64,000 nucleotides of DNA from a virus (IMGVR_UViG_2934543808_000001:70013-134012); one strand, 5' to 3'; shown: positions 44,701-58,883, counted from the first letter of the stretch. A program made the numbers and translations. The notes: generated by a model not told the origin, from the letters alone.

Positions 44701-47700
44701 TGTCATGGGCGACCACGAGACCGGCCGTGGCGAGATCCTTGCCGTGCCATACGCGGCGCTCCCCGTCGGGGGAAATGCTCACGTACTCCAGCACCTTGTC
44801 CTTGTTGGTGTTGTCGATCCGGCCGATCACCACGCCGTCGACCCTGACGGTCCACTCCCGGTCCAGGCCGGGCTTGTCGCCGTCGTCAGCGGTGACCTCA
44901 GCTCGGGCCACCAGCGCCTTCACGCGTTCGGGGCCGCCGAGTTCGTAGGTCTCGTCGTCTACCGGAACATCCCAGCCGATGTTGATGTCGGTGCGCGCCC
45001 GGTTCGTCGCCCTCTTGCGGACGTTCGGCTCCGGCTTCTCCACCAGCACGACCCACTCATCAGGTCCCACCCTGTCCTGGCCGTGGTCGGCGTCGATGGA
45101 CACCGAGCGGACGGCGCCTTCGACTCCGCCGCGGTGGGTGTGGACGACGTAGTTCGGAGTCTCCATGCCGTCGAAGCCGTCGGTCGTGCCGCGTCGCGGG
45201 TGCTTCACGGTGTGGAAGATGTCGCCCTTGCGGAGTTCGGAGCCGCGCGCCCAGCGCATGCCCTTGGGCAGCTCGGCTTCGCCGATCTTCAGCTCTCCGG
45301 TTCCGGTCCGGGCGTCGGCGAAGGGAGCCATCGGCGCGCCGATGCTCTCCCGCCGGCCGTTCGCCCAGTGCATCCCGGCCCAGTTCGAGCTGTCTTCCTG
45401 CGTGGCCCATCCTGCGAAGGCGGCCCAGTAGGCGCCACTGTCGGACACAGCGGCGTTGAGGGGGCGCATGGCTTCGGGGAACTGGGCACGGATGCCGTAC
45501 GACTTCTGATCGGGGTTGTCGCCGCCGACCACGCTGACGACGAAGTCCTCCGCCTGCTGCTCGGAGAGACCGTGCCCTGCGGCTCCGGCGCGAGCGCGGG
45601 CGATCTGCTCGCGTACCGCCGCCTGGACCTTCTGCGCTCGCTCCTCGACCAACTGGTTCCGGAGTTCCGCAGCCTTCTTCCGCCCCGCCCGGGTGGCGAT
45701 GTGGTCCATCAGGATGGGGCGGAGGTCCGCGCGCAGCTCGTCGCCCATCTTGCTCACGGAGGCGCGGAGATCTTCCGCGAGGCCGGCGAGGAACTGGCGT
45801 CCCTCCAGCGGTGCTTCTTCCAGGCTGCGGCGGGTGTTCTCGTCGTACTGGGCCAGCGGCTCGACATCGGCCATCGTGGAGATCCACTGCATCACGGACC
45901 AGGGGTCGGCGCTGGCCGTCCAGCCCTCCCTGTTGTGAGCGATCGCACGGTCGAGGTAGACGTTGCGCACCCCGGCCGGCTGCGGCTGCGCCCATATACC
46001 GGCCCACCGGCGGATCGGTTCGGCACGGGCGGTTTCGCCCACGTCGCGGGGGAAGCTCAGGACGGGCTCGGAGTCCGATTCCGCGACGATGAGGGCGGCG
46101 GCGTGCGCCGCGTTGTCGAAGTCGCTGCTGCGGTACCACGGCTCACCGACGGCGCCGTGCAGCGTGTGGTCTGCGCGCCACGACTCCCCGCCCGTGAAGT
46201 GGGCCTTGTTGTCGTTGTACAGGAGTGAGCCGATCCGCTTGCCGTCGAGGTAGACGGCGCGGCGAACCTCGTCGGCCTGGAAGCGCCGCTCGGCGGGGAT
46301 GACGTGGATCTCGCCGATCTCCACGGTCTTGCCACCGCGCTCACCGACCGTCTCGCGGGTCTCGTCCGGGCCCTTCCAGCCGACCGTGGGCTGGTCGGTC
46401 TCGGGCGCGGTCAGGCGCTCGACCTTCTCGTCCGCCAGGAGGGAGACGCCGTTGCCGTCCGAGGGCTCTTCCCCCTGCTCCCCGACGTGCAGGCGCCATG
46501 CCTTGATGCTCTGCCCGTCGCGGGTGGCCGTGATCTTCTTCGGCGGGGCAAGCAGGTAGCCCTCGCGGACAACGGCGTTGCCCGCGCTGTCCTGGGTCTC
46601 CACGCGGACGTAGTCGCCCTCGTTCACCTGGTCGATGCCCTCGACTTCGGAGCGGTCGACGCCGTCGTCGGTTGGCTCCTCGGGGGCCGTGCTGCGCTTG
46701 ATCGCTTCCCTGATCTGCGCCCCGGCAGCTTCCTCGATCTCCTCGCGCTGCTGGTCTTCGGCGCGCCGCCTGCGGACGGTGGCCCGGTGCCGCGCGAGGT
46801 GGGTGTCGGTCACGTCGAGGAACCGGCGCAGCGGCTCCTCCATCTCCTGGCGTTCGTTGTCCTCCAGAGTGGCGAGCAGTCCGGCCGCGTGGTCGCGGGC
46901 GGCGACCAGGTACCGCTCCGCCTCGTCGTGGTCGTTGTCCTCCTGGGCGGCGAGCGCGTCCAGGACGGCCCGGCCCAGCAGGTTGACGCCGGCGGGGGTG
47001 TCGTCGTTTGCCCAGGTACGACCTGCCGCCCGACGGACCTGGAGTTCGGCGGCATCGACCGGGACCATCGCGGCCCGCCAGTCGCCATCAGTCGCGAACG
47101 GCTCGGCCGCCGGAACGTCCGGGGCTGCGGGAGCCTCCGGGGTGCCAGTCTCCGGTTCCTCGGCGCGCGGCTTGTACGGCTGGGCGTAGTGGTCGGTCTC
47201 GCCCGGGGCGGGGATCGTCGCCGCCTTGCGCGCGGAGTCGTACTGCTGGAACTCCATCTTGCTGGCGGCGCCGAGCAGCACCTTCCGGTTGCGGCGGCCC
47301 TCGGGGGTGCTCTGGTCCTGCTGGGCAGCGGCCTCGCGCGCCGCGGCGGCCAGCGCGCCGGCCTGCGCCGAGTAGGGGCTGTAGCGGCGGTGGCCCGGGT
47401 CCCACGGCAGTGTGTCGATCGGCGTGCCGTCGTCGTAGTTCCCGGACAGGGTGAGCTTGCTCAGCTCCCGAACCTGAGCCGGGGTGAGCGTCATCTCGGT
47501 GATCGCCCGGTCCGGCGTGACCGGCGTGCGCGTGGCCTGCTCCGGCTTGCCGTTCTCGTCCGTCCCGCCGGTGTACTTCTGGCGGAGGAAGTCGAGGCCG
47601 TCACGGACGATGGAGGCGGCGCGCACAGGGGCGGCACCGGCCTGGTTAGGCAGTTCCTCGTGCCACTGCATGTCCGCGGGGGCTCCGCCGTCGGCGTTCT

Positions 47701-50700
47701 GGCCCCACCAGTACCGGCGGCCGTTGTCGCCGATGCGGGCGCGGACCCATCCGACGGTGTTGCCGTCCGCGTCCACGATGGTGCCGTGGCCGGCTTCCAC
47801 GTCGAGGTCGCGCAGGCGGTACCCCGTGGACAGCTCCAGGCCCTCGGGGGTCGACGCCTGGGCGATGTCGTCCGCGTTCTTGCGGGCCTTCGTGTCCTCG
47901 CCGCTGCGGTCCCCTCCGAACGGGGTGCCGTCGGGGCGAGTCACGTCCTTCAGCGGCCACACGCGCGTGCTGCTGTCCCCGCGCACAAGCACCGACCCGT
48001 CGTGCACGGCCATGACGTCACCGAGGCCGTCAGGCGTCATCACCTGGTCGTCCTTGGCGGGCAGATCCTGCTCCGGGGCAGCCGCGGGGGTGGTCGTCTC
48101 GGCGGGCGGGACCGGGGCGTCCGTGTTCCGTTCGGGCGCCGGCGTGTTGGTGTCGTCGTTGTTGTTGAGGTTGGCGAGATCGTCGCGGACCCGCTGGGCG
48201 TCCAGCTTGGTGGTGCCTCCGGAGCCGTAGCGGCCTCCGGCGATGGCCTGGTCCAGCTCCTCGTCGGTGGCCGCGGGCAGCAGCGGCCGGGCCTGGCCGT
48301 TGCGGCGGCGCACCTGTGCGGGGCTGATCTCCTGTCGCTTGCCGCCCACGCCCGGCTCGTCGCTGGTGCTGACCACGGTGAGCATCGGCGGGTCGATCTC
48401 AGAGACCGTGCCGATGTTCGGCGTGCCGTCCTCGTCATCGAAGTCGACCTGGTCGCCGGCCTGGAAGTCGTCCAGCTTGAAGTCGCGGCGGTACTCGCCC
48501 TTCGGCGGCTGGGTGGGGTCGTCGTCGTTGACGGCCCGGAAGACCCAGCCGAGCGAGCCCGGGTCGAGGACTTCGGTGGCCCGGGTCACCGCGACGTACG
48601 CGACGCGCAGCGCCTCGTCGTCGGGGATGGTGTCCCAGTCGATGTTGCCGTCGTCGTTGTCCTCGGGCCCCTTGAAGTCGTCGGCGATGCGGACGCGTTC
48701 GGACTCCAGGCCCTTCGCCTTGTGGGCGGTGGTCACGAGCACGTCGTGCGGCTCGTGCTCGGGCACCAGGCGGCCGTTGCCGTCATCGCTGTCGTCCTGC
48801 GGGTACAGCTTCGCGAGGTGGGCGTCGATCCGCTGCTGCGCCTCTTCCAAGGACAGCTTGTTGTCGATCTTGTGGACGCCGGAGCGGGTCTTCGACTTCC
48901 ACGGCACGCTGCGCTTGCCGGGCTCGTAGTAGTACCGGCGGGTCGCCGGGTCGTACACGAGCTTGCCGACGCCGTTGTTCTTGCCGTCGCCGAGCCACCG
49001 CCGCAGGCCGTCGGCGTTGGGGTCGTTCCAGTCGAGGCGGACCCACACGCGGTCACCGACGAGTTCGGTGGCCGCCGGCCGGGAGCCGGAGGAAAGCAGG
49101 GCGTCGATGTCGTCGCCGTGCTTCTCCAGCAGGTTGAACAAGCTGGCGAGCTGCTGGAGGTCGGGGTCGGTCTTGACCTCCTCCACGATGTCGTCGAAGG
49201 CCATGCCGTTGAAGCGGGCCAGTTCGGCGTGATCGGTGTCCTCGCCCTCGGCCAGGGCGTGGGCGGCCTGCACGAACTCCTGGAGGGCCTTCACGCCGCC
49301 GGACACGGCGACGGTGCGGCCCGCGGTGAGCGCCTGCACCGCGGCGAGCGCGACGCCGGCGTTGGTGCGGGCGATGACCATGGACTCTTCGCCCGGGTGC
49401 AGTTGCTCGATGCGGGAGTTCTTGCGGTCGAAGCCCTTCAGCCGCATGCGGGTGCCGAGCAGCCGCAGGAACCGGTTGCCGACGTCGGCGACGGCCGGGC
49501 CGAAGCGGAAGGACTGGGTGAGGGTGGCGCGCGCGTCCACGGGGAGCTTGGCCAGGGCGTCACTCGCGCCCCGGAAGCCGTAAATGGCCTGGTTGGAGTC
49601 GCCAACGGCCACGACCTGCACGCCCTGGTCGAGGGCGGCGCGGACGACACCCTCCATCACCGGGTTCACGTCCTGGGCCTCGTCCCAGAACAGGGTGTCG
49701 GCGTCGATCTTGTAGCCGCCGAGCGCCCACTGCTTGACGATGTAGTCGAAGTCCATCGTCAGGTCGCGGTCGGGGTCGCCGGCCTCGGGGTCGCTGAGGT
49801 TCGCCCACATGCGGTCAGCGAGCGGCTTGACCGCGTTGAACAGGTCCCGACGCTCTTCGTCGGTCTTGGCCCTGACGTGCTGCGGGCCCATCTCGGCGTC
49901 GGCGGACTTCGCCCACTCGCGGATCATGCGCTCGGCGACGGTGGCCGCGCCGCCCGGGGTGAGGTCCCGGTTCCCGGCCTTGACCGTGTCGTACCAGCGC
50001 ATGCGGTCGGCGATCTGCTGGGCGCTGAGCTTCTTGAAGCCTCCGGCCTTGCTGCTGGGCAGCCGGTCGTTCAGACGCCGGTCGGCGACCCGGGCGGCGT
50101 ACGCGTTCGCCGTGGAGGCGAGCATGTTCTTCGCGTACTCGCCGCGGGCCTGGGCCTCGCGGGCCTCGGCGGCGACCGAGCGGTTGAACGCCAGGTAGAC
50201 GATCTTCTTGCCCGGCATGCGGTGCGAGAGCATCTTGAGCGTGGACGACTTGCCGGTACCGGCGAGAGCCATCACCGCCATGTTCAGGCCGCGGCGGGCC
50301 GCGCCCTCGATGATGATGTTCTGCTCGTCGGTGGGCGGGTAGTCCTCGCGGGCGGAGGCTTCGGAGCTGATGCGCTCCCACTCCTCATCGGAGTAGCCGC
50401 CCTCCTTCGCGTCGGGCAGATCCTCCACGCGCGTGACGAGGCCCTGGACTTCGGCGTCGTTCAGGCCGTAGCCCCCGAGCCGGTCCTGCACCGTGTCCCC
50501 GCGGGACGGCTCGACCAGCTTGCCGTTGTCGTCGTACTTGGGTTCCGGCTTCCACCGGCGGCGCTCTTCGTCCTCCAGCTCCCACTGACGCCGTTCCAGG
50601 CGCCGCCGCATGGCGAGGTCGAGGGGGTCGGTGGACTCGGCGAGGGGGCTGAGCTGGTCTTCGATCTCATCGATGGCGTCGCCGAGCTGTTCGGCGGTCA

Positions 50701-53700
50701 TGTCCGTCGGCGCGGTCTCCGGCTCCGGCTGCCGCTGCGGGCGGGCCGCGGGGGCGGGGCGCTCTCGACCATCGGCGGGCCTCGGCGCGCGCGGGGCGCC
50801 CGGCTCGCGGGTGCCCCCCGTGCCAGAGGTACGAGAGCGGGGTGAGGCGTTGGACGGCGTGCCGGAGTCCGCCGGGGCGTCCGTCTCGGCGGACTCCGCC
50901 GGGGCGCCCTCGGTCTCCTCCGGCTCCTCGGTGGTCTCGGGCTCCTCCTCCTGCGGCTGGTCCGCCTCGGGAGCAGCGGACTCGTCTTCCGGGGCACCGG
51001 ACTCGGGCGCGGCGGCGTCCTGCTCGGACTCGGCCGCTGCCTCATCGTCGGGCTGCGGGGCTTCCTCCTCGCCCGGCTCCGTCTCGTCCGTCTCCCCGGA
51101 GTCGTCAGGCTGCGGGGCCTCTTCCTCGGCCGGCTGCGTCTCGTCCGTCTCGTCGGAGTTCTCGCCACCTTCGGGCCGCAAGTCGTCCAGCTCGGCACGC
51201 ACCTGCGCGGGGTTGAGCGCGACGTCGCCGTCGACGGAGTCGGTGGTCTCCTCGCTGGGCGCCGGGGCGTCCGGCTGCGCCTCGCTCTGCTGCTGGTCGT
51301 TGTCGGCGGGCGGGGCGTCCTCGCTCAGCCCGTCCAGGTCGCTGCGCACCTGCGCGGGGTCGAGGGTGGTCTCGCCGCGCTCCTCGCGGGCACGCTGCTG
51401 CTTCTCCCGCTTCTTGCGTTCCTTCGCGGCCTTCCTCGCCTCGGCGTCCGGCCAGGTGATGCGCGGCCGGCCCTTCTCGTCGGTGCCGATCGACGGGGCG
51501 GCGGGCGTACGGGGGAGCAGGTCGGTGTCCTGCTCGGCCGCCGGGTCGTCCACGTCCGCGGCGTCCTCGCCGGCGGCAAGGCGGGCCTCGCGGAGCTGGT
51601 GCTCCAGCGCCTCCATGCGGTTGCGCTTGTCCTTGGCCGCGTCCTCGCTGCTGACCTCCCGGCCCTGCTCCTTGATGATCGCGGCGATCAGCTTGGAACG
51701 GCGCTCGGCGGCCTCCAGCTCGGCGGCCTGCTCGAAGGGGCGGTCGACGCGCTCTCGCGCGGTCGCGGCGGCGCGCTCCTCCTGGCGGAGTCGGCTCTCC
51801 AGCCGCACGATCATCTTCTCGACGTCGGCGAGCTTGTCCTCGATCCGGGTGATCGGAAGGGTCGACTCCTTCTTCAGGTCCTTCTCGTCGTACGAGAAGA
51901 GGCTCTGCGGGACGTCGGGCATGCGGATGTCCACCAGGTGCACGCGGCCGGCGTTGCTCCACGTGGTCCGGTACTTCGCGGTGACCTCGATGTTGCCGAC
52001 CTTGCCGATGACGACCTCGGGGTGGCCGCCAGGCTTGTACGGGTTCTCGGTGCCCTGCCGCAGCACGGCGCGCGCCGCGGTGGCGAGCGCCTGGGCGGCC
52101 TCGTCGCGCTTGGTGAAGTCCTTGGTGCCGATGGTGGCGTTGAAGTCGTCGCCGCGGGTGTTCTTCTTCCGCGCGACGACGTCGCGGAGCTGGGCGGTGA
52201 GTTCGTTGGTCTTCTCGCGCAGCCGCTCGGCGGCGTGGATCGTGGACTTGTAGCCCTCGATCGTGCGCATGTGGCCCTTGAGCTTGCGCGTCAGGGCGCC
52301 GAGGGCGACCTTCACGTTGGCCTGCTCCAGCAGGTACGGGTTGCCGGTGGAGATGGCCGTGACCTGCTCGGCGTTGAACACACCGTCGGGGATGTCCTCG
52401 ATGGTCCGCTCGGTCAGGTTGCCCTTCATGATCTGGCGGATGAACTTCGCCTTGCGGGCCACCGTCTGCCACGAGAAGCCGTCGAACGACCCCTCGGTGA
52501 CGTACTGGAAGATCGCGACCTCGGGGTTGAAGTTGCCCTGGCGGATGATGCGGCCGTTGCGCTGTTCGAGGTCGGCCGGTCGCCACGGGCAATCGAGGTG
52601 GTGCAGGGCGGTCGCGCGGAGCTGGACGTTGGTGCCGACGCCCATCTTCGTGGTGGAGCCGAGGAGGACGGAGATCTTGCCGTTCCGGGCGTCGGCGAAG
52701 AGCCGCGCCTTCTCCACGTCGTTCTTGGCCTCGTGGATGAAACGTATCTTCTCGGCGGGCACGCCCCGCTCGATGAGGAGATCCTTCAGCTCCTGGTAGG
52801 CGGGGAACTTGGACTGGCCCAGCTCCTCCATGTCGGCGGGGCCCTCGGTCTTGCCCTTCTTCTTCTTGGACTTGCCCGGGTCGACCGGGGTGCCCATGTC
52901 CAGGAAGACGATCTGAAGGCCGCCCGGCGTCTCGTGCGGGGTCGGGTTGTTCTTCGAGGTCGGGTAGACCGCGTCCTTGGTGTCGGCGTAGATCCGGGCG
53001 ATGTTGTCGGCCGCCGCGGGCAGCTTGGCGCCCTGCTCGTCAATGCCGACCATGCGGGGGTCGAGGGAGACCTTCCGACCGTCGGAGTTGATCTTGAGCA
53101 TGTTGTCGACGGTCGGTTCGACGTCGCCGCGCTTCACGGCCCGCGCGCGGGCCGCGATCTGATCCATGTAGGCCAGGAGCCCTTCGGTGGGCTCGACGGA
53201 AACGGTGACGGCCTTGCCGCCGGCCACGTCCGGGGTGTCCAGGTACTCGGCGAGGTCGTCGGAGTTCTTGACGTCGGCGACGGTGCGCCAGATCCTCAGC
53301 AGCTCCGGCATGTTCCGGAACGCGGCGAAGCGGCTGACTTCCCGGAAGCCGGACCCGTCGGCGGCCAGCTCGGTGCCGTTGACGACCTTGCCGTAGGTGG
53401 AGGCGAAGTCATCGAAGTTGCGGACCTTGGCCTTGTCCAGCAGGTCGGGCCGCAGGTAGCGCAGCATCGTGTGCGCTTCGGTGATCGAGTTGGAGATCGG
53501 CGTGGCCGTGGCGAAGGTGACGACGCGGCCGGACTTCGTGGTCTTGCGCAGGTACTCCAGCTTCATGTCGAGGTCGGAGGCCCTGTTCGAGCCCTCGATC
53601 GCTGCGCCGGGGAGCGTGGAGTTGGTGGTCAGGTTCTTGTAGTGGTGGGCTTCGTCTACGACGACGTAGTCGATGCCCGTGTCCTCGAAGTAGAGGCCCG

Positions 53701-56700
53701 CGGTGTCCTTCTGCGCCTCGACCTTGGCCGTGATCTTCGCTTCGAGCTTCTTGAGCCGGTTGCGGATCTCCTTGACCATGCGGGAGTCGGTCCGCTTGCC
53801 GGGGTTGGCCTCCTGGTCCTCCCGCTTCTGCCGCTTCAGGGCCTCTTCGAGCTGCTCCTTCTCCCGCTTGATGTATTCGAGCTGCACCTCCGGGCGCATG
53901 GGGATGGACTCGAAGGCGTTCTGGGTGAGGATCACCGCGTCGTAGTCGCCGGTGGCGACGCGGGCGATGAACTCCCGGCGCTTGCGTCCCTGGAGGTCGT
54001 CGCTGGACGCGGCGAGGATGCGGCCGTTGGACGCGGACTCGGGGTACAGCTCTGCGAACTCGTCGCGGAACTGGTTGAGCATGTGGTTCGGGACGACGAT
54101 GGCGGCCTTGTTGACCAGGCCGAGGCGCCGGAGCTCCATCACGCCCATGGTCATTTCGGCGGTCTTGCCGGCGCCGACCTCGTGGGCGAGGAGCACCGCG
54201 GGTTCGCTGACCATGCGCGCGACGGCGGCGTGCTGGTGGGCGTGCGGCTTGAACCACTCGGCCAGGCCCGGCATGGTGCGGCGCTGGCCGTCGTACGACC
54301 TCAGCGCCAAGTTGTTGTGCAGGTCGTTGTAGCGCTTCTTGACCTGCTCGGTGCGTTCCTGGGTGGCCCACAGCCAGTCCTGGAACTCCTCGCGCATCTC
54401 CTCGGCCTTGGTCTGGGCCGCGGCGGTGGCGTCCTCGTCGACCCAGGTCTTGCCGTCCTCATCGCGGTAGGTGACGCGAATCCGGCCGTTGGTCAGGATC
54501 GCCTCGGCGAGCTTGACCGCGTTGAAGTCCTCGGTGCCCCAGACCTTGCGGGCGGCCTGGCTGTTCTTCACGGCGTCGGGGGCGTCAACCCGCCACATCG
54601 AGCCGCCCTGGTAGCTGACGGTGACCGCGTCGGTGTTGAGCTTGTCCCGCAGGAACGCCTGGATCGGGCCACGGCCGAGCCAGGAGGCGCCCATGGGGGC
54701 GTCGATCTCGCCGGGGGAGATCTCCTCGGGGAGCACGTCTTCGAGGTGCTTGACGTTGATCTCGTACCGGGAGTCGTTCGCGGCGAGGGCCTGCGCCTGC
54801 TCCAGCTTCTCCCGCACGTTGCCGGACAGGTACTCGGCCGCCGGCACGAGGTTGCCCCGGTCGTGGGGCTCGAAGACCAGCGGGTACTCCTCGCCGGTCT
54901 CCGGGTCCTTGGAGCGGGCGGCGAGCAGCCGTTCCCGAGCCGTCTCCGGGCTGGCGCCCATCACGTCGGCGAGGGCGTCGATGTCGAGGGTGCCGCGCTG
55001 CTCCAGCACGATCGCCATCGCGTCCTCGGGACGGCTGGCCCGCTCAGCGATGGTGCGGTGCCGGGCCTGCCGCTTGGTGAAGATCGCGGCCGGCGTGCTG
55101 GTCTTCGTGTTCTCGTCGTACGAGTCCAGGGACAGGATCACGGCCATGGTCGGGTCCTTGGTCAGGAGTCCGCCCATGGGGGGTCGCTTGCGGAACGCCT
55201 TCTCGACCTGCTCGCCGGTCTCCGAGTCGGTGGTCTTGCGCTTCGACCACTCGAACCGGTTCACGGAGCCGAACTTGGCGTTGTACGTGTCGTAGCGGGA
55301 CTTCAGATCGGCGCGCAGCGTCTCGATCAGGGCCTCGTCGGCGTCCGGCCGGGACTCCTCCCGGACAAGGGCCTTCAGCGAGTCGCGGAGCCCGAGGAGC
55401 TGCTGGGCCTCCTCGATCTGCGTCTTCGGCACCTCGAAGGGGTGGACCATGCCGTCACGGACCTGAGTGAACGTCCCGTCCGATTCGAGCTGCACGTGCC
55501 CGTCGGGCCGGTCCGACTCCGCGGACAGCAGCTCGACCTTGCGGCGCTCGCCGGTGTCCGGCTTGTACGTGAGCCGGGCGTCCTTCGCGCGGCCGACGAC
55601 CCGCTTCAGGGTGTAGCCCAGCTCCTCGTTCAGGTCGCCGGCGACGTGCACGCGCAGCTCGCCCGGCCCGTACATGCCGTTGCCGACGTGCATGTCGCCG
55701 ATGACGTTGCGGGGGTGGTCCAGGAAGTACGGGTTGACGTGGACCTTGGGCGCTTCGTTGTCCTCCGCGTCCTGGCCGGGAAGGTCGTGGACCTGCACGG
55801 TGTGCACCCACGTCGGCGGGTCGTCCTGCTTGCGCTGCTCGGGCGGCTTCACCTCGCCCTTGCGGGTGCGGCCGGAGGTGAACTCCTTGTCCTTCTCCCG
55901 GCGCCGGAAGATGAGCAGGTCGGTGACGACGTCCGTGCCGGCCGTACGGCGGTGCGCTCCGGACGGCAGACGGATCGCGCCGACCAGGTCGGCCTTCCGC
56001 GCCATCTCCATGCGGGCGTCTTCGGAGCGCGGCGTGTCGCCGTCCATGGTGTAGCGGGAGGTGACGACGGCGACCAGGCCGCCGGGGCGGGTCAGGTCCA
56101 GCGACTTCAGGATGAAGTGGTTGTGGATGTTGTGGCCGCCCTTGTTGTGGCGCATGTCCACGACCTGGTAGTCGCCGAAGGGGACGTTGCCGACGGTCAT
56201 GTCGAACGTGCCGTTGGCGGCGCGGGTCTTCTCGAAGCCCTCGTTGCGGATGTTCGCGTGCGGGTAGAGGGCCTTGGCGATACCGGCGGTGATCGGGTCC
56301 AGCTCGACGCCGGTCATGTCCGCGTTCTCGGGCGCGTACCCGATGAAGTTGCCGGAGCCGCTGCCCGGCTCCAGGACGTTGCCGCCGTCGAAGCCCAGCT
56401 CCCGGACCGCCTTCCACACCTGCTGAGCGATGGCCGGGTCGGTGTAGTGGGCGTTGAGGGTGTTGTCCTGAGCGGCCTCGTACTCGGCGTCGCTGAGGAG
56501 TTCCCGGAGTCGTCGCTGAAGCGGCTCGAACTCGGGCTTCGGGGTGTCTACGAAGACCTGCGGCGTGGCGCCCCAGCCGGACCAGCGGGCCAGGGTCTCC
56601 TGCTCGGCGGCCGTGGCCGGCCGGTTCTCGTCCTGGAGGCGGCGCAGCACCTCGATGGCGGCGATGTTCGCCTTGACGCGGGCCAGGACGCCGCTGGGGA

Positions 56701-58843
56701 CGACGGGGCGGCCGTCCTCCGGCGGCTGGTACTGCGGGGCGGTCTGCTCCTGCTCGGGGGAGCCGAAGGTTACCCGGCTGCGATCTTCGGCAGACTCACC
56801 TTCGGCATCTCCTTCTCCTCCGTCCCGGGCTCCTTCTCCAGGCTGTACAGCTTCTCGTCCAGGGCCTTCTCCCTCGCCCGCAGCGTCGCCATGTGAATCA
56901 GCCCCATCGCGTCCCGGAAGTCCGCCCCCGGCTCCGGCTCCTCCCGGAAGTCGTCCCGGTACTCCGCGATCAGCTCCTCGATCTCCGCGCTCTCCTGCGC
57001 GAAGAACCTCTCCGGCGGCGTCGTCTCCGCCAGCGTCGCCAGCGCCTCCGGCCGGTACGTCTCCCAGAACGCCTTCACCAGCGCCTTGTACCCGCTCACT
57101 CTGCTCCTTCTGGTCGTCGCGCTGGCCGTCGGCCGGCTGCGGGGTCACATCTTCACCCGGCACGCCCGCAGTGGGGGTGTCGGGGGCGGTCTCGGGGTTT
57201 TGACGCTGCTCTTCGTTCGGTTCGTCGCGGCGGCGGCCGAGGCGGGCCGCGGCGCTGTCGGTGGCGCCGCGCTCGCGGTCGAACTGGCCGGCGAGCTGCC
57301 AGATGGCGCGGCCGGACCGCTGGTCGTCCTTGTCGCGGAACTCAATCAGCTCGGCGTTCAGGCGGGGGCCGCCCCAGTCGACGGTGCGGCCGTCCGCGTG
57401 GCGGAGGTTGCTCGCCAGGAACAGGGTGAACCGGTCGGCGGTGTCGCGGTCGCCGAAGTGGCCGTAGGTGTGGAGGCCGCGGTTGCCGAGGCTCGACAGG
57501 CCGCGGCCGGTGCCGGCGGCGCGCACCTCGTAGCGGTAGTCGTCGTCGCGGGTGGTGTCCTCCACGATGGCGAAGCCGCGGTGGTCGGCGAGGTGGAGCT
57601 TGTACTTCGGGTCGTTGGCGTACCGGCGCATCACGTCGCGCTGGCCTTCGGGGGTGTCGTCGCTGCCGCCGCGCTTCCAGAACTCGTGCAGCTCGGCATC
57701 GTTGCGCGGGCGGCCCCGCTCGTCGCCGAATTTCTGCGGGCCGACGTGCCCGACGGCGATGTTCGAGGCGGGGGCGCCGGAGCGGTCCGCGACCTGCTGG
57801 GCGGCCTGCGCGAGGGGACTCTTCGGCGGCGTCTGGGTCGGGGCGGCGGGCTTCGTGCGGGAGGTGGCGCCCTCACGCTTCTTGGCGGCCCGCTGGGCGA
57901 AGCGCTGCCGGGACTCGGCAGCCAGCCGGCCGGCCTTCTCCAGGCCGTCCGGGGTGTTGAGCCGGTCGAAGGACGCGGGGTCGTTCCAGTCGATGCGTTC
58001 GCCGTCGACCTCGAAGGACTCCATGTTGTTGGCGAAGTCGATCGCTTCGCCCTTGCGGTCGGAGATGATGAGGCGCACGCCGGTCTCGGTGTGCATGACG
58101 CCCCAGCCGGCCTGCTCACCGTTCTTCGTGCGCCACGTGGTGTGGCCGACGACGAAGTGGCCGTTGCGGGAGAGCTGGGGCTTGTCCAGCTTGTCGAGCA
58201 GTTCGGTCGTGAACTTGTTGTGGCTGTCCTGCGCCTTCTCGTCCTTGGTGAAGGCGCGGACCTTGCCGCTGGCCCAGTGGGCGCGGACGTCGTCCAGGGT
58301 CTTGAAGCGGCGGTTCGGGTCGCGGCGGGCACGCTTCGCGGCGGGCTTCGGCTCGGGCTCGTCGTCCGGCTCGTCGTCGTCCGGCTCCGGGCCCTGGCCG
58401 AGGTCTTCGCCGTCGATGTCCTCCCCGATGTCCTCGCCCTGGTCGTCCTGGTCGTGGGGGTCGTCGGAGGTGTCGCCCTGGTCGCCGGCGTCGTCGTCGT
58501 TCAGGCCGGTGCCGCGGCGGCCGTCGGAGAGGCGGCGCTCGTCCTCGTCGCGGACCTTCTTCTTGCTCTTGGTGGGGGCGGTGCCGTCCGGCCGGGCGAC
58601 CATCGTCAGGCGGGAGCCGTGAACGGTGGACTGCTGGTGCGTGGTCAGGTTCTCGACCAGCACGTTCCGGCCGCCGAGGGAGCGCACGACCCGGGCCAGG
58701 CCGCCGCCCCAGAGCCGCGCGATGCCGCCCGTCTCGATGAATCGGCCCTTGGAGTCACGCGGATGCAGATCGGGGTTCCAGGGGCGGCGAGCCTTGGCTT
58801 CAAGGCGAGCGGCGAGACGGTCAGCGGCGTTCGTGATCTGCAT
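38729..58843 (-). CDS. Giant 6,704-aa polyvalent protein: DarB-like N6-adenine MTase + SNF2 helicase, UvrD-like SF1 helicase, repeat domains
   Basis: MTase: VLEPGSGSGNF, GNVPF. SNF2: HEVGAGKT, VDEAH, ATATPISN, QRNGRIIRQGN. SF1: ALAGTGKS, DEAQD, VGDSNQAIYGFRGA, TAHKAKGLE, YVAVTRA. N-terminal WNPDLHPRDSKGRF. Start set from the promoter geometry. Confidence 0.88.
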   Translation of the reverse strand: MQITNAADRLAARLEAKARRPWNPDLHPRDSKGRFIETGGIARLWGGGLARVVRSLGGRNVLVENLTTHQQSTVHGSRLTMVARPDGTAPTKSKKKVRDEDERRLSDGRRGTGLNDDDAGDQGDTSDDPHDQDDQGEDIGEDIDGEDLGQGPEPDDDEPDDEPEPKPAAKRARRDPNRRFKTLDDVRAHWASGKVRAFTKDEKAQDSHNKFTTELLDKLDKPQLSRNGHFVVGHTTWRTKNGEQAGWGVMHTETGVRLIISDRKGEAIDFANNMESFEVDGERIDWNDPASFDRLNTPDGLEKAGRLAAESRQRFAQRAAKKREGATSRTKPAAPTQTPPKSPLAQAAQQVADRSGAPASNIAVGHVGPQKFGDERGRPRNDAELHEFWKRGGSDDTPEGQRDVMRRYANDPKYKLHLADHRGFAIVEDTTRDDDYRYEVRAAGTGRGLSSLGNRGLHTYGHFGDRDTADRFTLFLASNLRHADGRTVDWGGPRLNAELIEFRDKDDQRSGRAIWQLAGQFDRERGATDSAAARLGRRRDEPNEEQRQNPETAPDTPTAGVPGEDVTPQPADGQRDDQKEQSERVQGAGEGVLGDVPAGGAGDAGGDDAAGEVLRAGERGDRGADRGVPGRLPGGAGAGGGLPGRDGADSHGDAAGEGEGPGREAVQPGEGARDGGEGDAEGESAEDRSRVTFGSPEQEQTAPQYQPPEDGRPVVPSGVLARVKANIAAIEVLRRLQDENRPATAAEQETLARWSGWGATPQVFVDTPKPEFEPLQRRLRELLSDAEYEAAQDNTLNAHYTDPAIAQQVWKAVRELGFDGGNVLEPGSGSGNFIGYAPENADMTGVELDPITAGIAKALYPHANIRNEGFEKTRAANGTFDMTVGNVPFGDYQVVDMRHNKGGHNIHNHFILKSLDLTRPGGLVAVVTSRYTMDGDTPRSEDARMEMARKADLVGAIRLPSGAHRRTAGTDVVTDLLIFRRREKDKEFTSGRTRKGEVKPPEQRKQDDPPTWVHTVQVHDLPGQDAEDNEAPKVHVNPYFLDHPRNVIGDMHVGNGMYGPGELRVHVAGDLNEELGYTLKRVVGRAKDARLTYKPDTGERRKVELLSAESDRPDGHVQLESDGTFTQVRDGMVHPFEVPKTQIEEAQQLLGLRDSLKALVREESRPDADEALIETLRADLKSRYDTYNAKFGSVNRFEWSKRKTTDSETGEQVEKAFRKRPPMGGLLTKDPTMAVILSLDSYDENTKTSTPAAIFTKRQARHRTIAERASRPEDAMAIVLEQRGTLDIDALADVMGASPETARERLLAARSKDPETGEEYPLVFEPHDRGNLVPAAEYLSGNVREKLEQAQALAANDSRYEINVKHLEDVLPEEISPGEIDAPMGASWLGRGPIQAFLRDKLNTDAVTVSYQGGSMWRVDAPDAVKNSQAARKVWGTEDFNAVKLAEAILTNGRIRVTYRDEDGKTWVDEDATAAAQTKAEEMREEFQDWLWATQERTEQVKKRYNDLHNNLALRSYDGQRRTMPGLAEWFKPHAHQHAAVARMVSEPAVLLAHEVGAGKTAEMTMGVMELRRLGLVNKAAIVVPNHMLNQFRDEFAELYPESASNGRILAASSDDLQGRKRREFIARVATGDYDAVILTQNAFESIPMRPEVQLEYIKREKEQLEEALKRQKREDQEANPGKRTDSRMVKEIRNRLKKLEAKITAKVEAQKDTAGLYFEDTGIDYVVVDEAHHYKNLTTNSTLPGAAIEGSNRASDLDMKLEYLRKTTKSGRVVTFATATPISNSITEAHTMLRYLRPDLLDKAKVRNFDDFASTYGKVVNGTELAADGSGFREVSRFAAFRNMPELLRIWRTVADVKNSDDLAEYLDTPDVAGGKAVTVSVEPTEGLLAYMDQIAARARAVKRGDVEPTVDNMLKINSDGRKVSLDPRMVGIDEQGAKLPAAADNIARIYADTKDAVYPTSKNNPTPHETPGGLQIVFLDMGTPVDPGKSKKKKGKTEGPADMEELGQSKFPAYQELKDLLIERGVPAEKIRFIHEAKNDVEKARLFADARNGKISVLLGSTTKMGVGTNVQLRATALHHLDCPWRPADLEQRNGRIIRQGNFNPEVAIFQYVTEGSFDGFSWQTVARKAKFIRQIMKGNLTERTIEDIPDGVFNAEQVTAISTGNPYLLEQANVKVALGALTRKLKGHMRTIEGYKSTIHAAERLREKTNELTAQLRDVVARKKNTRGDDFNATIGTKDFTKRDEAAQALATAARAVLRQGTENPYKPGGHPEVVIGKVGNIEVTAKYRTTWSNAGRVHLVDIRMPDVPQSLFSYDEKDLKKESTLPITRIEDKLADVEKMIVRLESRLRQEERAAATARERVDRPFEQAAELEAAERRSKLIAAIIKEQGREVSSEDAAKDKRNRMEALEHQLREARLAAGEDAADVDDPAAEQDTDLLPRTPAAPSIGTDEKGRPRITWPDAEARKAAKERKKREKQQRAREERGETTLDPAQVRSDLDGLSEDAPPADNDQQQSEAQPDAPAPSEETTDSVDGDVALNPAQVRAELDDLRPEGGENSDETDETQPAEEEAPQPDDSGETDETEPGEEEAPQPDDEAAAESEQDAAAPESGAPEDESAAPEADQPQEEEPETTEEPEETEGAPAESAETDAPADSGTPSNASPRSRTSGTGGTREPGAPRAPRPADGRERPAPAARPQRQPEPETAPTDMTAEQLGDAIDEIEDQLSPLAESTDPLDLAMRRRLERRQWELEDEERRRWKPEPKYDDNGKLVEPSRGDTVQDRLGGYGLNDAEVQGLVTRVEDLPDAKEGGYSDEEWERISSEASAREDYPPTDEQNIIIEGAARRGLNMAVMALAGTGKSSTLKMLSHRMPGKKIVYLAFNRSVAAEAREAQARGEYAKNMLASTANAYAARVADRRLNDRLPSSKAGGFKKLSAQQIADRMRWYDTVKAGNRDLTPGGAATVAERMIREWAKSADAEMGPQHVRAKTDEERRDLFNAVKPLADRMWANLSDPEAGDPDRDLTMDFDYIVKQWALGGYKIDADTLFWDEAQDVNPVMEGVVRAALDQGVQVVAVGDSNQAIYGFRGASDALAKLPVDARATLTQSFRFGPAVADVGNRFLRLLGTRMRLKGFDRKNSRIEQLHPGEESMVIARTNAGVALAAVQALTAGRTVAVSGGVKALQEFVQAAHALAEGEDTDHAELARFNGMAFDDIVEEVKTDPDLQQLASLFNLLEKHGDDIDALLSSGSRPAATELVGDRVWVRLDWNDPNADGLRRWLGDGKNNGVGKLVYDPATRRYYYEPGKRSVPWKSKTRSGVHKIDNKLSLEEAQQRIDAHLAKLYPQDDSDDGNGRLVPEHEPHDVLVTTAHKAKGLESERVRIADDFKGPEDNDDGNIDWDTIPDDEALRVAYVAVTRATEVLDPGSLGWVFRAVNDDDPTQPPKGEYRRDFKLDDFQAGDQVDFDDEDGTPNIGTVSEIDPPMLTVVSTSDEPGVGGKRQEISPAQVRRRNGQARPLLPAATDEELDQAIAGGRYGSGGTTKLDAQRVRDDLANLNNNDDTNTPAPERNTDAPVPPAETTTPAAAPEQDLPAKDDQVMTPDGLGDVMAVHDGSVLVRGDSSTRVWPLKDVTRPDGTPFGGDRSGEDTKARKNADDIAQASTPEGLELSTGYRLRDLDVEAGHGTIVDADGNTVGWVRARIGDNGRRYWWGQNADGGAPADMQWHEELPNQAGAAPVRAASIVRDGLDFLRQKYTGGTDENGKPEQATRTPVTPDRAITEMTLTPAQVRELSKLTLSGNYDDGTPIDTLPWDPGHRRYSPYSAQAGALAAAAREAAAQQDQSTPEGRRNRKVLLGAASKMEFQQYDSARKAATIPAPGETDHYAQPYKPRAEEPETGTPEAPAAPDVPAAEPFATDGDWRAAMVPVDAAELQVRRAAGRTWANDDTPAGVNLLGRAVLDALAAQEDNDHDEAERYLVAARDHAAGLLATLEDNERQEMEEPLRRFLDVTDTHLARHRATVRRRRAEDQQREEIEEAAGAQIREAIKRSTAPEEPTDDGVDRSEVEGIDQVNEGDYVRVETQDSAGNAVVREGYLLAPPKKITATRDGQSIKAWRLHVGEQGEEPSDGNGVSLLADEKVERLTAPETDQPTVGWKGPDETRETVGERGGKTVEIGEIHVIPAERRFQADEVRRAVYLDGKRIGSLLYNDNKAHFTGGESWRADHTLHGAVGEPWYRSSDFDNAAHAAALIVAESDSEPVLSFPRDVGETARAEPIRRWAGIWAQPQPAGVRNVYLDRAIAHNREGWTASADPWSVMQWISTMADVEPLAQYDENTRRSLEEAPLEGRQFLAGLAEDLRASVSKMGDELRADLRPILMDHIATRAGRKKAAELRNQLVEERAQKVQAAVREQIARARAGAAGHGLSEQQAEDFVVSVVGGDNPDQKSYGIRAQFPEAMRPLNAAVSDSGAYWAAFAGWATQEDSSNWAGMHWANGRRESIGAPMAPFADARTGTGELKIGEAELPKGMRWARGSELRKGDIFHTVKHPRRGTTDGFDGMETPNYVVHTHRGGVEGAVRSVSIDADHGQDRVGPDEWVVLVEKPEPNVRKRATNRARTDINIGWDVPVDDETYELGGPERVKALVARAEVTADDGDKPGLDREWTVRVDGVVIGRIDNTNKDKVLEYVSISPDGERRVWHGKDLATAGLVVAHDKATGRDEQDDDARQDGEPEDREQDSEEEQNQDDDQREGESRSRRRGDRDGAAPDEASGNGGDGGTPSPDAGNDDDHDPDGDGPEDGDEADDSDSEQRRDRRRRRDRDRDKERGERNGGAPNGGLPHLPGRDRDRDRGREDDDRDRSPNTGGPGGLDGLKNRYRSGNNPTPAGADKQEHAAYLRRLANNDTLTLSPGGGLITWSDDDGRTWQFGHAASGMHLAGWEALGEQIGGRDGAVRLADAYEQLRDENGNPIDWSAPELDAQALRAWRDANGNHIGAAIDQARQSVMDAAPGFRRQDGKDDTSTPESDAGRSESSGAQTDGQQPADGAAASNAGSPADSAQGEAADAPEGAADSQYLLNATHGTGRRGGTVDGRRVPTAKEMEQYETGPKGVVSEEGERVLFGSPERMRALAAEGFNPTPVLRLDHDGQIWRDGRLIGTLFAPHLHSSGGSSSDGEWWSEPPFASDLTKFATREAAIAHLVLRDKERGEPDLSVVHPDLAWTMRHTAQSLGFPGKEKPFRGLETLADNPVDLERYYALRALLDELGRGVTPSGNVADDLAHLHDELRWLDATHYKHQKPNLKDKYILGPGWLADQIREDFDVLRPEDPRAQHHDASKNRAAHQFIEELLENGGRNNAVRVPISDIREGDVVELDGRITGFYAGYTGRRLGYVIGEPTKATFKASGVRYKGYRVTVSKDQFEGTRHGANGDTFIIPADGGTALRLAEAEDVTLPFDQHRYGRQIGEGPRTAAADDSSSSSNAPEAERQDDTAVTPAATDTSAPESGTDAPRSEGRTEPAAARTTPVQPPADPAADRPARAEGGGDERRQDAPAGAPDATPEPPAAPEPVGGRPAEWVQVSELQLRDLVRIDGVTKQGKARTLAGHVVGGPKLIPVTKKGRATDMYRVLVADSPDARTGSPVYVMPDAAAARATRDDADQFQGSPQTGADSDVLTGRIADSVPTDARGNGLFPGSLVTDDDGKEGVVTGASANSVRVQFGDDRTDDNHSPTSLNVTDGGAGRPSGWTADGRLVRDGNVVGDRDGNMLGTVESVDGDTATVATPDGMRDLPIADLRVIGDTADGDNDHKVSSVEPAPAGDVQEGDVLVRESPDGPRTARVTGREEEGEQTHLDLEDTTTGETEKVSTASDSEVQRALGADGNPPELGPEDAPASGGEITSHEPAPAVDPVAGPTVDPQLSPEERDAITDRGQAPASDPDAQQGAARVANDLPLTPGQATALAEELREGADSATPEGRTAQRAADHLDAAAGNEPDDVDQPEPGTVGSVGEGDTITLPDEFDPDTMTAYRVVQIQEAPGGVRVLTIEDGDGMRFKRSLASSEPLYQLPDPEAPAADDDAEQRDPNPAPDAGKVRADYADAVVRAVIDSALDGTTTPGSIHQLRQQIAERLTPEALRAGMRRARNGAMAAITDAGFEGQERDDLVQSLRKEAARARTDAVRAAVRTLDDLEPLDGESEEDTASRAADLLRLIPEALRTRAAGGDNTDGEAGVNDDVTQHADDAVGEALQAAADSGELLTPERRAAIVQQLAARMDSSRNATAQRIASRLPEGQRAGILPHIVAGLVAIARRIIALVAAFLKALAKAWRAGRENLRRMRERISRFRQGLMRRIRSWPEARRLRRLAAAGRLPQHTDGLPLGDRVAHWARLLPAPGRFGQVSRRARWYRPTSRSSLAAGQLPEVQDGVRWTMDRSVDGGPGPQALRHLAAVRAAGQDVDTDVVARLSAAAPELGDDPHGTVRHAANYADTAERRLRDLEAAAAGGAPGADLEVAAARVEAQSARQEAARLQQAYAAALPDAVRGTLAEVREMGPGTTATLVTTPDSDPDAVRALTGIAQFVPRDWLSPTEARFLTARGGDAGGYDPASRIATVADLGDDGRRTAAHALLAHLQQHYPDLLAAQEAFHFTRTHSGRVGARRRTSLDRLLARLFRNSNGQGDTGNLVPLGIATLFDGQWYEDDDLRAFLLGLLATR
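56770..57099 (-). CDS. TnpV-like small protein nested out of frame inside the giant gene
   Basis: AAGGAG RBS 4 nt before the GTG; near-total GC3 in this frame; W..YRP..LA.L..PERFF...G.D......L..A.LRAREKAL pattern. Confidence 0.7.
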   Translation of the reverse strand: MSGYKALVKAFWETYRPEALATLAETTPPERFFAQESAEIEELIAEYRDDFREEPEPGADFRDAMGLIHMATLRAREKALDEKLYSLEKEPGTEEKEMPKVSLPKIAAG

Positions 58844-58850
58844 GCGGCGG

Positions 58851-58883
58851 ACCATGCACAACCGAAGTGGTTAGCGTCGCGTC
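58851..58883 (-). promoter_or_regulatory. Late-promoter motif copy (leaderless giant gene)
   Basis: GACGCGACGCTAA; CATGGT 19 nt after GAC and 7 nt before ATG 58843. Confidence 0.55.

What the first reader, a model, noticed from the sequence alone, without database searches (positions are those of the whole stretch)
56770..57099. TnpV-like gene nested out of frame within the giant ORF
Seen: a 109-aa ORF on the same strand with its own AAGGAG RBS and almost all G/C third positions. Over the same stretch the giant frame drops to atypical codons (AGT GAG CGG GTA CAA GGC GCT GGT GAA) and Gly-rich low complexity. It ends just before the MTase domain. Inference: the giant gene formed by fusing an N-terminal head-targeting module to a conjugative-element MTase-helicase by reading through the small upstream gene, which has stayed intact. 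The small protein may be a partner or regulator.
Basis: partly seen in the sequence, partly recalled or inferred. Interest (0 to 1): 0.75.

Follow-up and report, generated by a model that had tools for sequence, protein, structure and literature searches.

The report
TnpV-like gene nested in giant gene
A small, well-folded TnpV-family protein gene lies completely inside a 6,710-codon methylase-helicase gene in another reading frame, and the same two-frame arrangement is kept in plasmids across the actinobacteria, so it looks like a real, old overlapping gene pair and not a chance open frame.

Summary
ORF 56770-57099 (minus strand, 109 aa, GTG start, AAGGAG 4 nt upstream) is the only place in the 6,710-codon ORF where the GC3 signal changes frame.

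The protein is real. AlphaFold2 gives pLDDT 95.4. A profile finds 97 clusters of about 100-aa relatives. Some relatives are annotated 'TnpV protein'.

In the window's own clade the giant frame cannot hold stops, because the nested third positions are almost all G or C. But in 15 of 15 actinomycete genome loci and 13 of 14 plasmid loci that I examined, a TnpV-like ORF sits directly before an MTase-helicase homologue, nearly always one base out of frame.

In lower-GC plasmids the MTase frame stays open across the whole small ORF. About 23 stops were expected in 18 loci and none was seen. There the MTase frame starts about 76 nt upstream with a conserved peptide that evolves as coding sequence.

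So the overlap predates the phage-plasmid fusion. Fourfold sites in the nested ORF are unusually conserved (12 of 32 variable against 95 of 127; P = 1e-4). A -1 frameshift is disfavoured. Translation of either frame was not shown.

The parts
56770..57099 (-). Nested TnpV-like ORF: 109 aa, GTG start at 57099, TAA stop at 56770-56772. It is read one base later than the giant frame.
   Evidence: GC3 0.97. Intact in 8 of 8 distinct clade members. AF2 pLDDT 95.4, pTM 0.84, four helices. Family of 97 representative clusters.
57104..57109 (-). AAGGAG Shine-Dalgarno-like site, 4 nt before the GTG of the nested ORF. It lies inside giant-frame codons for K-E-Q.
   Evidence: An SD-like core is present at -18..-4 in 22 of 25 loci, against 0.18 at random positions.
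38729..58861 (-). Giant ORF, 6,710 codons from the first TTG. The likely true start is the ATG at 58843, by analogy with the annotated start in L001. It is a polyvalent protein with MTase, SNF2 helicase and UvrD-like parts.
   Evidence: Pfam hits on the segment from 56770: SNF2-rel_dom, Helicase_C and ResIII above their cut-offs; Eco57I at 22.7 bits is below its 25.3 cut-off.
57100..58861 (-). N-terminal part of the giant ORF (about 587 codons) upstream of the nested ORF. It codes in the giant frame right up to the nested start and has no stop.
   Evidence: GC3 is in the giant frame. All indels among the 8 relatives are multiples of 3. No Pfam, NCBIfam or PHROG family apart from a sub-threshold GBP_repeat hit. 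No Atlas hit.
56773..57099 (-). The same DNA read in the giant frame: about 110 G/A/D/E/R-rich codons, probably a disordered linker between the N-terminal part and the MTase module.
   Evidence: Translation. No stop in any of 31 loci in this frame, against 2-8 stops in the third frame. Fourfold sites of the nested frame are less variable here than in the flanks.
56570..56593 (-). LARWSGWG motif of the helical domain before the MTase. It is probably the LPD36 'GxGU' motif of Iyer et al. 2017.
   Evidence: W63, W66 and G67 are invariant and S64 nearly invariant in alignment A3. The motif description was read in PMC5512222 section 14. The assignment is my inference.
56000..56398 (-). Adenine-MTase core. 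The Pfam Eco57I and Methyltransf_23 matches are below their cut-offs.
   Evidence: residues 125-257 of the segment starting at 56770. NVPF is conserved in A3.
52535..54238 (-). SNF2-type helicase module (SNF2-rel_dom / ResIII and Helicase_C).
   Evidence: residues 845-1055 and 1330-1412 of the segment starting at 56770.

Best explanation
The 330-nt stretch is read in two frames. An internal Shine-Dalgarno site and a GTG start give a 109-aa, four-helix TnpV-family protein. Ribosomes that started far upstream read the same DNA one base earlier, as a Gly/Ala/Asp/Glu/Arg-rich linker that joins the N-terminal part of the giant polyvalent protein to its MTase-SNF2 helicase module. The TnpV-like frame is the older one: it carries the codon-usage signature and encodes a folded protein. 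The helicase gene grew its 5' end across it (overprinting). This happened in the ancestral actinobacterial plasmid gene, whose product starts with a short conserved peptide (basic residues, then GQLSxEALW) encoded just upstream of the small gene. The phage-plasmid lineage later added about 560 more codons in front. Shown here: both frames are intact in all relatives, the helicase frame is kept free of stops beyond chance in lower-GC relatives, it codes upstream of the small ORF, and synonymous change inside the small ORF is reduced. Inferred, not shown: that both products are made, and that the small protein works with the MTase-helicase as a partner, chaperone or regulator whose supply is tied to that of the big protein by the overlap.
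For: (1) Frame switch: GC3 moves to the nested frame only at 56790-57180 in the whole giant ORF. (2) Nested protein is real: pLDDT 95.4; 97 representative clusters at E <= 1e-3, most about 100-140 aa; SD-like core in 22 of 25 loci against 0.18 background. (3) Linkage: all 15 loci from the 15 of 401 Actinomycetes genomes with a family member have an MTase homologue directly downstream, as do 13 of 14 plasmid loci fetched. The MTase frame is the small frame +2 in 13 of the 15 genome loci by script; L022 also has it at the junction by eye, and L017 is degraded. It is +2 in 11 of the 14 plasmid loci. (4) Stops: 0 stops in the MTase frame across the small ORF in 31 of 31 loci, against 2-8 in the other frame. 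Over 18 diverse loci, synonymous-codon shuffles expect 9.8 stops in the 5' halves and 13.0 in the 3' halves, and 0 were observed; the products of P(no stop) are 10^-5.1 and 10^-6.9. (5) The MTase frame codes upstream of the small ORF. It has an ATG or GTG 76-200 nt upstream, then a conserved peptide with synonymous third-position changes and an AGC/TCG serine switch. (6) Window clade: fourfold sites are variable in 12 of 32 in the nested ORF against 95 of 127 in the flanks, Fisher P = 1.1e-4. dS is 0.20 against 0.42-0.59. All indels upstream are multiples of 3. There is no ATG/GTG/TTG in the MTase frame between the small start and the MTase homology in any of the 8, and none in the last 43 codons before it in L005. 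(7) MTase-frame protein homology begins at or before the small stop (gaps -25 to +2 in several lineages).
Against: No data on translation: no RNA run is on record, and no ribosome profiling or proteomics was available. In the window's own clade, openness of the giant frame is what GC3 of about 0.97 gives by itself (P = 0.69-1.0), so selection there rests on the fourfold-site and indel evidence only. dN/dS in the nested region is 0.69 for the nested frame and 1.09 for the giant frame, so the linker's residues are not visibly constrained. The loci in the shuffle test share ancestry, so the product of P values overstates independence. Lower dS could partly reflect local recombination. One locus (L044) has the TnpV-like domain in the same frame as the MTase, and one (L041) has no MTase downstream. 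The dS contrast in two other clades is weaker or flawed: 0.54 against 0.70, and 0.39 against 0.91 with a frameshifted member included.
Confidence: 0.72

Rival explanations
1. Chance open frame. The 6,710-codon ORF is not one gene here: the giant frame is open across the small gene only because G+C-rich third positions exclude stops, and the MTase-helicase is made in some other way.
For: Synonymous-codon shuffles keep the frame open in 69-100% of trials for the window and its close relatives. Giant-frame dN/dS in the overlap is 1.09.
Against: The upstream part has no stop in 8 of 8 relatives, and its indels are all multiples of 3 up to the small start. There is no start codon in the MTase frame from the small start to beyond the start of MTase homology. 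In lower-GC relatives the frame is open although about 23 stops are expected over 18 loci. Fourfold sites are over-conserved.
Confidence: 0.1
2. Programmed -1 frameshift. Translation starts at the small ORF, and near its stop some ribosomes slip back one base and continue into the MTase-helicase, giving the TnpV-like protein alone and a TnpV-MTase-helicase fusion.
For: The MTase frame is -1 relative to the small frame in nearly all loci. MTase-frame homology starts right at the small stop. One locus (L044, Iamia plasmid) has the two in one frame.
Against: There is no X XXY YYZ heptamer in the small frame in the window or in 21 of 27 loci, none conserved in position, and no homopolymer run. The MTase frame is kept open in the 5' half of the small ORF too (9.8 stops expected, 0 seen). 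A start codon and a conserved, coding N-terminal peptide lie in the MTase frame upstream of the small ORF. None of the 97 listed family hits is longer than 345 aa, so no fused giant form was found.
Confidence: 0.07
3. Relic. The small ORF is no longer translated and only the giant protein is made. The nested-frame codon signature is left over from an absorbed gene.
For: Nested-frame dN/dS is high for a gene (0.69). Annotators of several records call only the large CDS.
Against: The ORF is intact in 31 of 31 loci spanning several orders, with 24-80% identity to the window's protein. The SD-like core is kept in 22 of 25 loci. dN/dS is 0.19 and 0.47 in two other clades. The fold is confidently predicted. 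GC3 of 0.97 would decay if the giant frame alone were selected.
Confidence: 0.05
4. Remnant of a mobile insertion. A TnpV-carrying element once integrated into the snf2-type gene and left only its tnpV behind.
For: In Streptococcus suis, elements that carry TnpV genes are integrated in snf2 genes (PMC9815147, passages seen).
Against: No recombinase or repeats were seen beside the ORF in the loci examined. The position just before the MTase module and the frame relation are the same across orders, which fits one old event followed by selection and not repeated insertion. I did not search for att-like repeats.
Confidence: 0.03

Closest known systems
TnpV of Tn4451 and relatives (Pfam PF14198)
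   Same: A small protein of about 100-120 aa on mobile elements. 17 of 52 members of the nested protein's family touch PF14198 at E <= 1. Homologues are annotated 'TnpV protein'. Atlas structure matches have TM 0.71-0.73.
   Different: The window's protein itself gives no PF14198 hit. TnpV of Tn4451 was postulated to act in excision by likeness to lambda Xis (PMC3158075, passage). Here there is no neighbouring TnpX-type recombinase in the loci seen, and the constant neighbour is an MTase-helicase. No function has been tested for either.
Polyvalent proteins with the DNA methylase-helicase dyad (DarB of phage P1; Iyer et al. 2017, PMC5512222, section 14 read)
   Same: An MTase fused to a SWI2/SNF2 helicase, preceded by a helical domain with a GxG(G/A/S) motif, on phages and conjugative elements. 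The paper notes giant actinomycete forms with an added UvrD-like helicase. The window has Pfam SNF2, Helicase_C and weak MTase hits.
   Different: A term search of that paper's main text found 0 occurrences of 'TnpV', 'overlapping' and 'frameshift', so the nested gene is not described there. Packaging or injection of this protein is not shown.
Same-strand nested genes such as comS inside srfAB of Bacillus subtilis and Rz1 inside Rz of phage lambda
   Same: A short ORF with its own start lies wholly inside a longer gene on the same strand in another frame, and both are expressed.
   Different: Here the embedded gene appears to be the older, folded, widely distributed one, and the long gene supplies only a low-complexity linker over it. 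The pair is kept across several actinobacterial orders.
Overprinting in viruses (review PMC8227390, seen only in the search listing)
   Same: One frame is ancestral and structured, and the newer frame is compositionally biased and probably disordered.
   Different: The newer frame here is not a new protein. It is a 5' extension of an existing enzyme gene, later used as a bridge to further N-terminal modules.

Membership tests
TnpV (Pfam PF14198) | The protein matches the PF14198 model at or above the 27-bit gathering score. | tested here: not met
   P0001 has no Pfam family at E <= 0.1. There is no PF14198 match at E <= 10 anywhere in the 134-kb record.
TnpV (Pfam PF14198) | Transitive homology: relatives of the protein match PF14198. 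| tested here: inconclusive
   17 of 52 aligned family members hit PF14198 at E <= 1, best 1.3e-4. I did not see whether any reach the cut-off. No NCBIfam model names the family.
TnpV (Pfam PF14198) | Same fold or annotation as proteins called TnpV. | tested here: met
   tblastn with a family member lands on CDSs annotated 'TnpV protein' in Sinomonas, Arthrobacter, Paenarthrobacter and Kocuria plasmids. Atlas structure search gives TM 0.71-0.73 to clusters auto-named TnpV. Names are annotations, not tested functions.
Same-strand nested overlapping gene pair (both frames functional) | Both frames are intact in relatives. | tested here: met
   31 of 31 loci have the small ORF intact and 0 stops in the MTase frame across it. 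This count holds only loci that already passed as intact: the degraded or odd loci L017, L040, L041, L042 and L044, and the duplicate L031, were left out.
Same-strand nested overlapping gene pair (both frames functional) | The second frame is open more often than codon usage predicts. | tested here: met
   Not met in the window's clade (P = 0.69-1.0). Met over 18 diverse loci: 22.8 stops expected, 0 seen. The loci are related, so the combined P is approximate.
Same-strand nested overlapping gene pair (both frames functional) | Synonymous change is reduced in the overlap. | tested here: met
   Fourfold sites are variable in 12 of 32 against 95 of 127, P = 1.1e-4. dS is 0.20 against 0.42-0.59. 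The contrast is weaker in two other clades.
Same-strand nested overlapping gene pair (both frames functional) | Both products are detected. | not testable with these tools
   No RNA holder is listed. No ribosome profiling or proteomics was available.
Programmed -1 ribosomal frameshift site | A conserved slippery heptamer X XXY YYZ (or a slippage-prone run) lies near the end of the upstream ORF. | tested here: not met
   None in the window. Present in 6 of 27 loci at differing positions. No A/T runs of 6 or more and no G/C runs of 7 or more.
Polyvalent protein with MTase-SNF2 dyad (DarB-like) | An adenine MTase is followed by a SWI2/SNF2 helicase in one polypeptide. | tested here: met
   SNF2-rel_dom 35.1 bits, Helicase_C 35.7 bits and ResIII 32.9 bits are above their cut-offs. 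Eco57I MTase at 22.7 bits is below its 25.3 cut-off. NVPF and the AdoMet-site glycines are invariant in A3.
Polyvalent protein with MTase-SNF2 dyad (DarB-like) | Delivered with the DNA (in the virion or through the conjugation pore). | not testable with these tools
   Context only: a portal gene lies upstream in relative L001.

The most novel reading that the evidence does not exclude
The TnpV-like protein is an obligate partner of the LPD36-MTase-SNF2 module, for example an assembly chaperone, an inhibitor that keeps the enzyme idle in the donor, or an adaptor for export. The complete overlap would then be a device that ties its synthesis to that of the giant protein: two sets of ribosomes share one stretch of mRNA, so the rate of initiation at the internal start sets a fixed ratio of the two products, and neither gene can be lost or moved without the other. 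This would give TnpV, a widespread mobile-element protein of unknown function, its first concrete role. It would also be a family-wide, ancient same-strand gene overlap in bacteria.
Probability: 0.3. Interest if true: 0.75.

Novelty: new member of a known kind. Interest (0 to 1): 0.62.

Why it matters
Long same-strand overlaps kept over large evolutionary distances are rare and often doubted in bacteria, above all in G+C-rich genomes where open alternative frames are cheap. This case has an internal control for that doubt. Lower-GC relatives keep the frame open against expectation, and the big gene demonstrably codes upstream of the small one.

Annotation pipelines treat the locus inconsistently. 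Some call 'TnpV protein' plus a shortened helicase; others call one big helicase and no small gene. So one of the two products is missing from most records, and the true N-terminus of the MTase-helicase is often mis-set.

The finding ties TnpV, whose function is unknown, to the methylase-helicase dyad of polyvalent anti-restriction proteins, which gives a testable lead. It also shows how a giant polyvalent gene can grow: its reading frame is extended across a neighbouring gene without destroying it.

Tried and rejected
Direct family searches with the nested protein gave nothing usable: Pfam, NCBIfam and PHROGs and PF14198 against the whole record.

Structure searches with the AF2 model gave no convincing match. 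Foldseek against PDB had no hit at E <= 0.001. VIA-align wide had a best Z of 5.6 (2apl_A, 62 residues aligned), within the noise for helical models. No function can be read from the fold.

The N-terminal 560 residues gave no Atlas hit and no family. I therefore could neither support nor reject 'head-targeting'.

No RNA holder is listed for the stretch. Laying contigs of four runs showed relatives covering the stretch. In the one record spanning all of it, the listed differences were few inside the nested ORF and many upstream, but 47 rows were not shown, so I made no count.

The search for slippery heptamers and homopolymer runs was negative.

I looked for an internal MTase-frame start in the window's clade. 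A GTG about 45 nt upstream of the nested start is present in 6 of 8 relatives but is GTC in L004 and L005, so I did not adopt it.

Literature: 'TnpV' occurs in 38 papers, none by title or listing about an overlap with a helicase gene. The 'TnpV/helicase/methyltransferase' search gave nothing relevant. The 'overlapping gene/alternative frame/Streptomyces/nested' search gave general works only. The frameshifting review PMC5009743 has no passage on such a gene among its 'Streptomyces' and 'methyltransferase' hits.

Loci left out of counts: L002, L006 and L016 (100% identical to the window); L013-L015 (the same places as L004, L005 and L003); L031 (the same place as L026); L011 and L012 (no clear family member; L011 has a weak hit of E = 0.0017 in a separate upstream gene).

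Full report
WHAT IS THERE. The window is the last 64 kb of a 134-kb virus record with direct terminal repeats. Its close relatives include Streptomyces plasmids: L001 of 132.6 kb and L005 of 135.3 kb. A more distant relative is L010, a 131.5-kb Streptomyces plasmid. In relative L001 a phage portal gene lies just upstream of the giant gene.

On the minus strand, one ORF runs from 58861 to 38729 (6,710 codons). Inside it, one base out of frame, lies ORF 57099..56770 (109 codons, GTG start), with AAGGAG four bases upstream. G+C content by codon position shows that over 56791-57060 the third-position signal (0.97-1.00) sits in the nested frame. The giant frame's third position falls there to 0.33-0.50. 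A scan of the whole giant ORF found no second place of this kind.

IS THE SMALL ORF A GENE? It is intact, with the same start context, in the seven other distinct members of the clade (L001, L003, L004, L005, L007, L008, L009).
- A profile of six close sequences finds 97 representative clusters at E <= 1e-3 in 1.84 billion proteins, nearly all 85-200 aa and none longer than 345 aa.
- With an alignment of 52 of these, AlphaFold2 predicts a four-helix protein at mean pLDDT 95.4 and pTM 0.84.
- An SD-like core lies 4-18 nt before the start in 22 of 25 loci, against 18% of random positions.

Pfam does not recognise the window's protein. But 17 of 52 family members touch PF14198 (TnpV) at E <= 1, best 1.3e-4. 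RefSeq names homologues on Sinomonas, Arthrobacter, Paenarthrobacter and Kocuria plasmids 'TnpV protein'. The Atlas structure search returns clusters auto-named TnpV at TM 0.71-0.73. 'TnpV-like' is thus a fair label for a distant relative. It says little about function: TnpV of Tn4451 was only postulated to act in excision (PMC3158075, passage). Fold searches gave nothing above noise.

IS THE GIANT FRAME'S CONTINUITY MEANINGFUL? In this clade it is not, taken alone. The giant frame's first codon position is the nested frame's third position, which is almost never T, so stop codons cannot form. Synonymous-codon shuffles keep the frame open in 69-100% of trials.

Other evidence does bear on it.
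- The upstream 587 codons code in the giant frame right up to the nested start.
- They have no stop in 8 of 8 relatives.
- All indels among the eight are multiples of three.
- No ATG, GTG or TTG exists in the MTase frame between the nested start and well into the MTase homology. In L005 there is none in the 43 codons before the nested start either.
- Fourfold-degenerate sites of the nested frame are variable in only 12 of 32 cases, against 95 of 127 in the flanking giant-frame sequence (Fisher P = 1.1e-4).
- Pairwise dS is 0.20 against 0.42-0.59.

Something besides the nested protein constrains these sites. However, dN/dS of the giant frame in the overlap is 1.09. So if the linker is made, its exact residues matter little.

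THE WIDER FAMILY CHANGES THE STORY. I searched 401 Actinomycetes genomes with the family profile. Fifteen had a member, and in all 15 loci an MTase homologue lies directly downstream on the same strand. Of 14 plasmid loci fetched from 69 plasmid records with a tblastn hit, 13 have one. L041 does not.

The frame relation is nearly constant.
- Genome loci: the MTase frame is the small frame +2 (that is, -1) in 13 of 15 by script. L022 has the same relation at the junction and a frameshift about 100 codons later. L017 is degraded.
- Plasmid loci: it is +2 in 11 of 14. L040 is degraded, L044 is in frame, and L041 has no MTase.
- MTase-frame protein homology starts at, or up to 25 nt before, the small stop in several lineages.

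In plasmids of lower G+C (loci at 0.60-0.62, small-ORF GC3 0.78-0.84), the MTase frame is still open through the whole small ORF. It begins at an ATG about 76 nt upstream of it. Across 31 loci the MTase frame has 0 stops in the overlap, while the third frame has 2-8. For 18 diverse loci, shuffles expect 9.8 stops in the 5' halves and 13.0 in the 3' halves. The loci share ancestry, so the combined probabilities (10^-5 and 10^-7) are rough.

Upstream of the small ORF, where there is no overlap, the MTase frame encodes a conserved peptide: M, basic residues, then (E/D)GQLS(F/L/I)(E/D)ALW. It occurs in Sinomonas, Arthrobacter, Paenarthrobacter, Nocardia and Kocuria plasmids. Differences among them are mostly at third positions, and there is an AGC/TCG serine switch in Iamia. 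That is the signature of coding sequence. The MTase-helicase gene of ordinary actinobacterial plasmids therefore starts before the TnpV-like gene and crosses all of it. Annotators split on this: some records carry 'TnpV protein' plus a helicase starting after it, others one large helicase CDS over both.

MECHANISM AND HISTORY. The best reading is a true dual-coding stretch. The TnpV-like frame is older: it has the codon-usage signature, a folded product and a wide family. The helicase gene extended its 5' end across it, and the new frame supplies only a low-complexity linker. The phage-plasmid clade (and, independently or not, L010, L018 and L033) then added long N-terminal parts in the same frame.

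The strict linkage, the overlap and one in-frame fusion (L044; it may be a one-base error) suggest that the small protein works with the MTase-helicase. That is inference.

RIVALS. A programmed -1 frameshift would explain the constant frame offset. Against it:
- No slippery heptamer is found in the window or in 21 of 27 loci, and none is conserved in position.
- The MTase frame is protected in the 5' half of the small ORF too.
- The MTase frame has its own conserved start and N-terminal peptide.

A chance-open frame and a dead relic are each contradicted by the points above. A remnant of a TnpV-carrying insertion into an snf2 gene, as seen in Streptococcus suis elements (PMC9815147), cannot be excluded as the distant origin.

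KNOWN OR NEW. The giant protein is a polyvalent protein with the methylase-helicase dyad described by Iyer et al. 2017, who mention giant actinomycete forms with UvrD-like helicases (PMC5512222, section 14 read). A term search of that paper's main text found no occurrence of 'TnpV', 'overlapping' or 'frameshift'. My four other searches found no description of this overlap. Supplements were closed.

Nested same-strand genes are a known kind (comS in srfAB, Rz1 in Rz; recalled). This is a new, unusually widely conserved member of that kind, in which the embedded gene is the older one.

LIMITS. Nothing here shows translation of either frame.

Noticed in passing
L032, L034-L036, L038, L039, L043, L044 (about 30-80 nt upstream of the small ORF, MTase frame): The plasmid MTase-helicase proteins begin with a conserved peptide: basic residues, then (E/D)GQLS(F/L/I)(E/D)ALW. 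The Iamia plasmid has EQLSLFDD. This resembles the QLSLF-type sliding-clamp-binding motif (papers seen only in a search listing). In L029 and L030 a similar SLFDE lies just after the small ORF's stop instead. In the window's clade the matching spot reads ADGQRDDQ, so the motif has decayed there.
   Followed up: partly
L044:2001-2600 (Iamia sp. plasmid): The TnpV-like domain and the MTase are in the same frame and are annotated as one 'methyltransferase domain-containing protein'. The old upstream start and EQLSLFDD peptide persist in the -1 frame. This is either a real in-frame fusion or a one-base error.
   Followed up: partly
L017, L022, L040: The MTase-helicase genes next to intact or extended TnpV-like ORFs are frameshifted or broken into several frames. 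These look like decaying copies.
   Followed up: no
L026:888-1773 (same place as L031): Two TnpV-like ORFs lie in tandem before one MTase gene. The upstream copy is separated from the MTase frame's open stretch by a single stop.
   Followed up: no
L038:2495-3968 (Nocardia farcinica pNF1): About 1.47 kb of extra open MTase-frame sequence lies between the small ORF's stop and the MTase homology. RefSeq starts the helicase gene inside this stretch.
   Followed up: no
window 57130-57160 and relatives: A conserved block (P/A)G(E/D)DV(T)PQ(P/Q)A(D/A)GQ lies in the giant frame about 45 nt before the nested start. Its Val is GTG in 6 of 8 relatives, so a second, internal start for a shorter MTase-helicase isoform is possible in some of them.
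   Followed up: partly
window 58700-58861: The giant ORF's first TTG is probably not the start. The relative L001 is annotated from the ATG that gives MQITNAADR..., which corresponds to 58843 here. The N-terminus carries an NPDLHPRDSKGRF motif that I could not place.
   Followed up: no
L041 (Rhodococcus antarcticus plasmid, start of record): A TnpV-like ORF with no MTase-helicase gene downstream. This is the only such case among the 29 loci examined for context.
   Followed up: no
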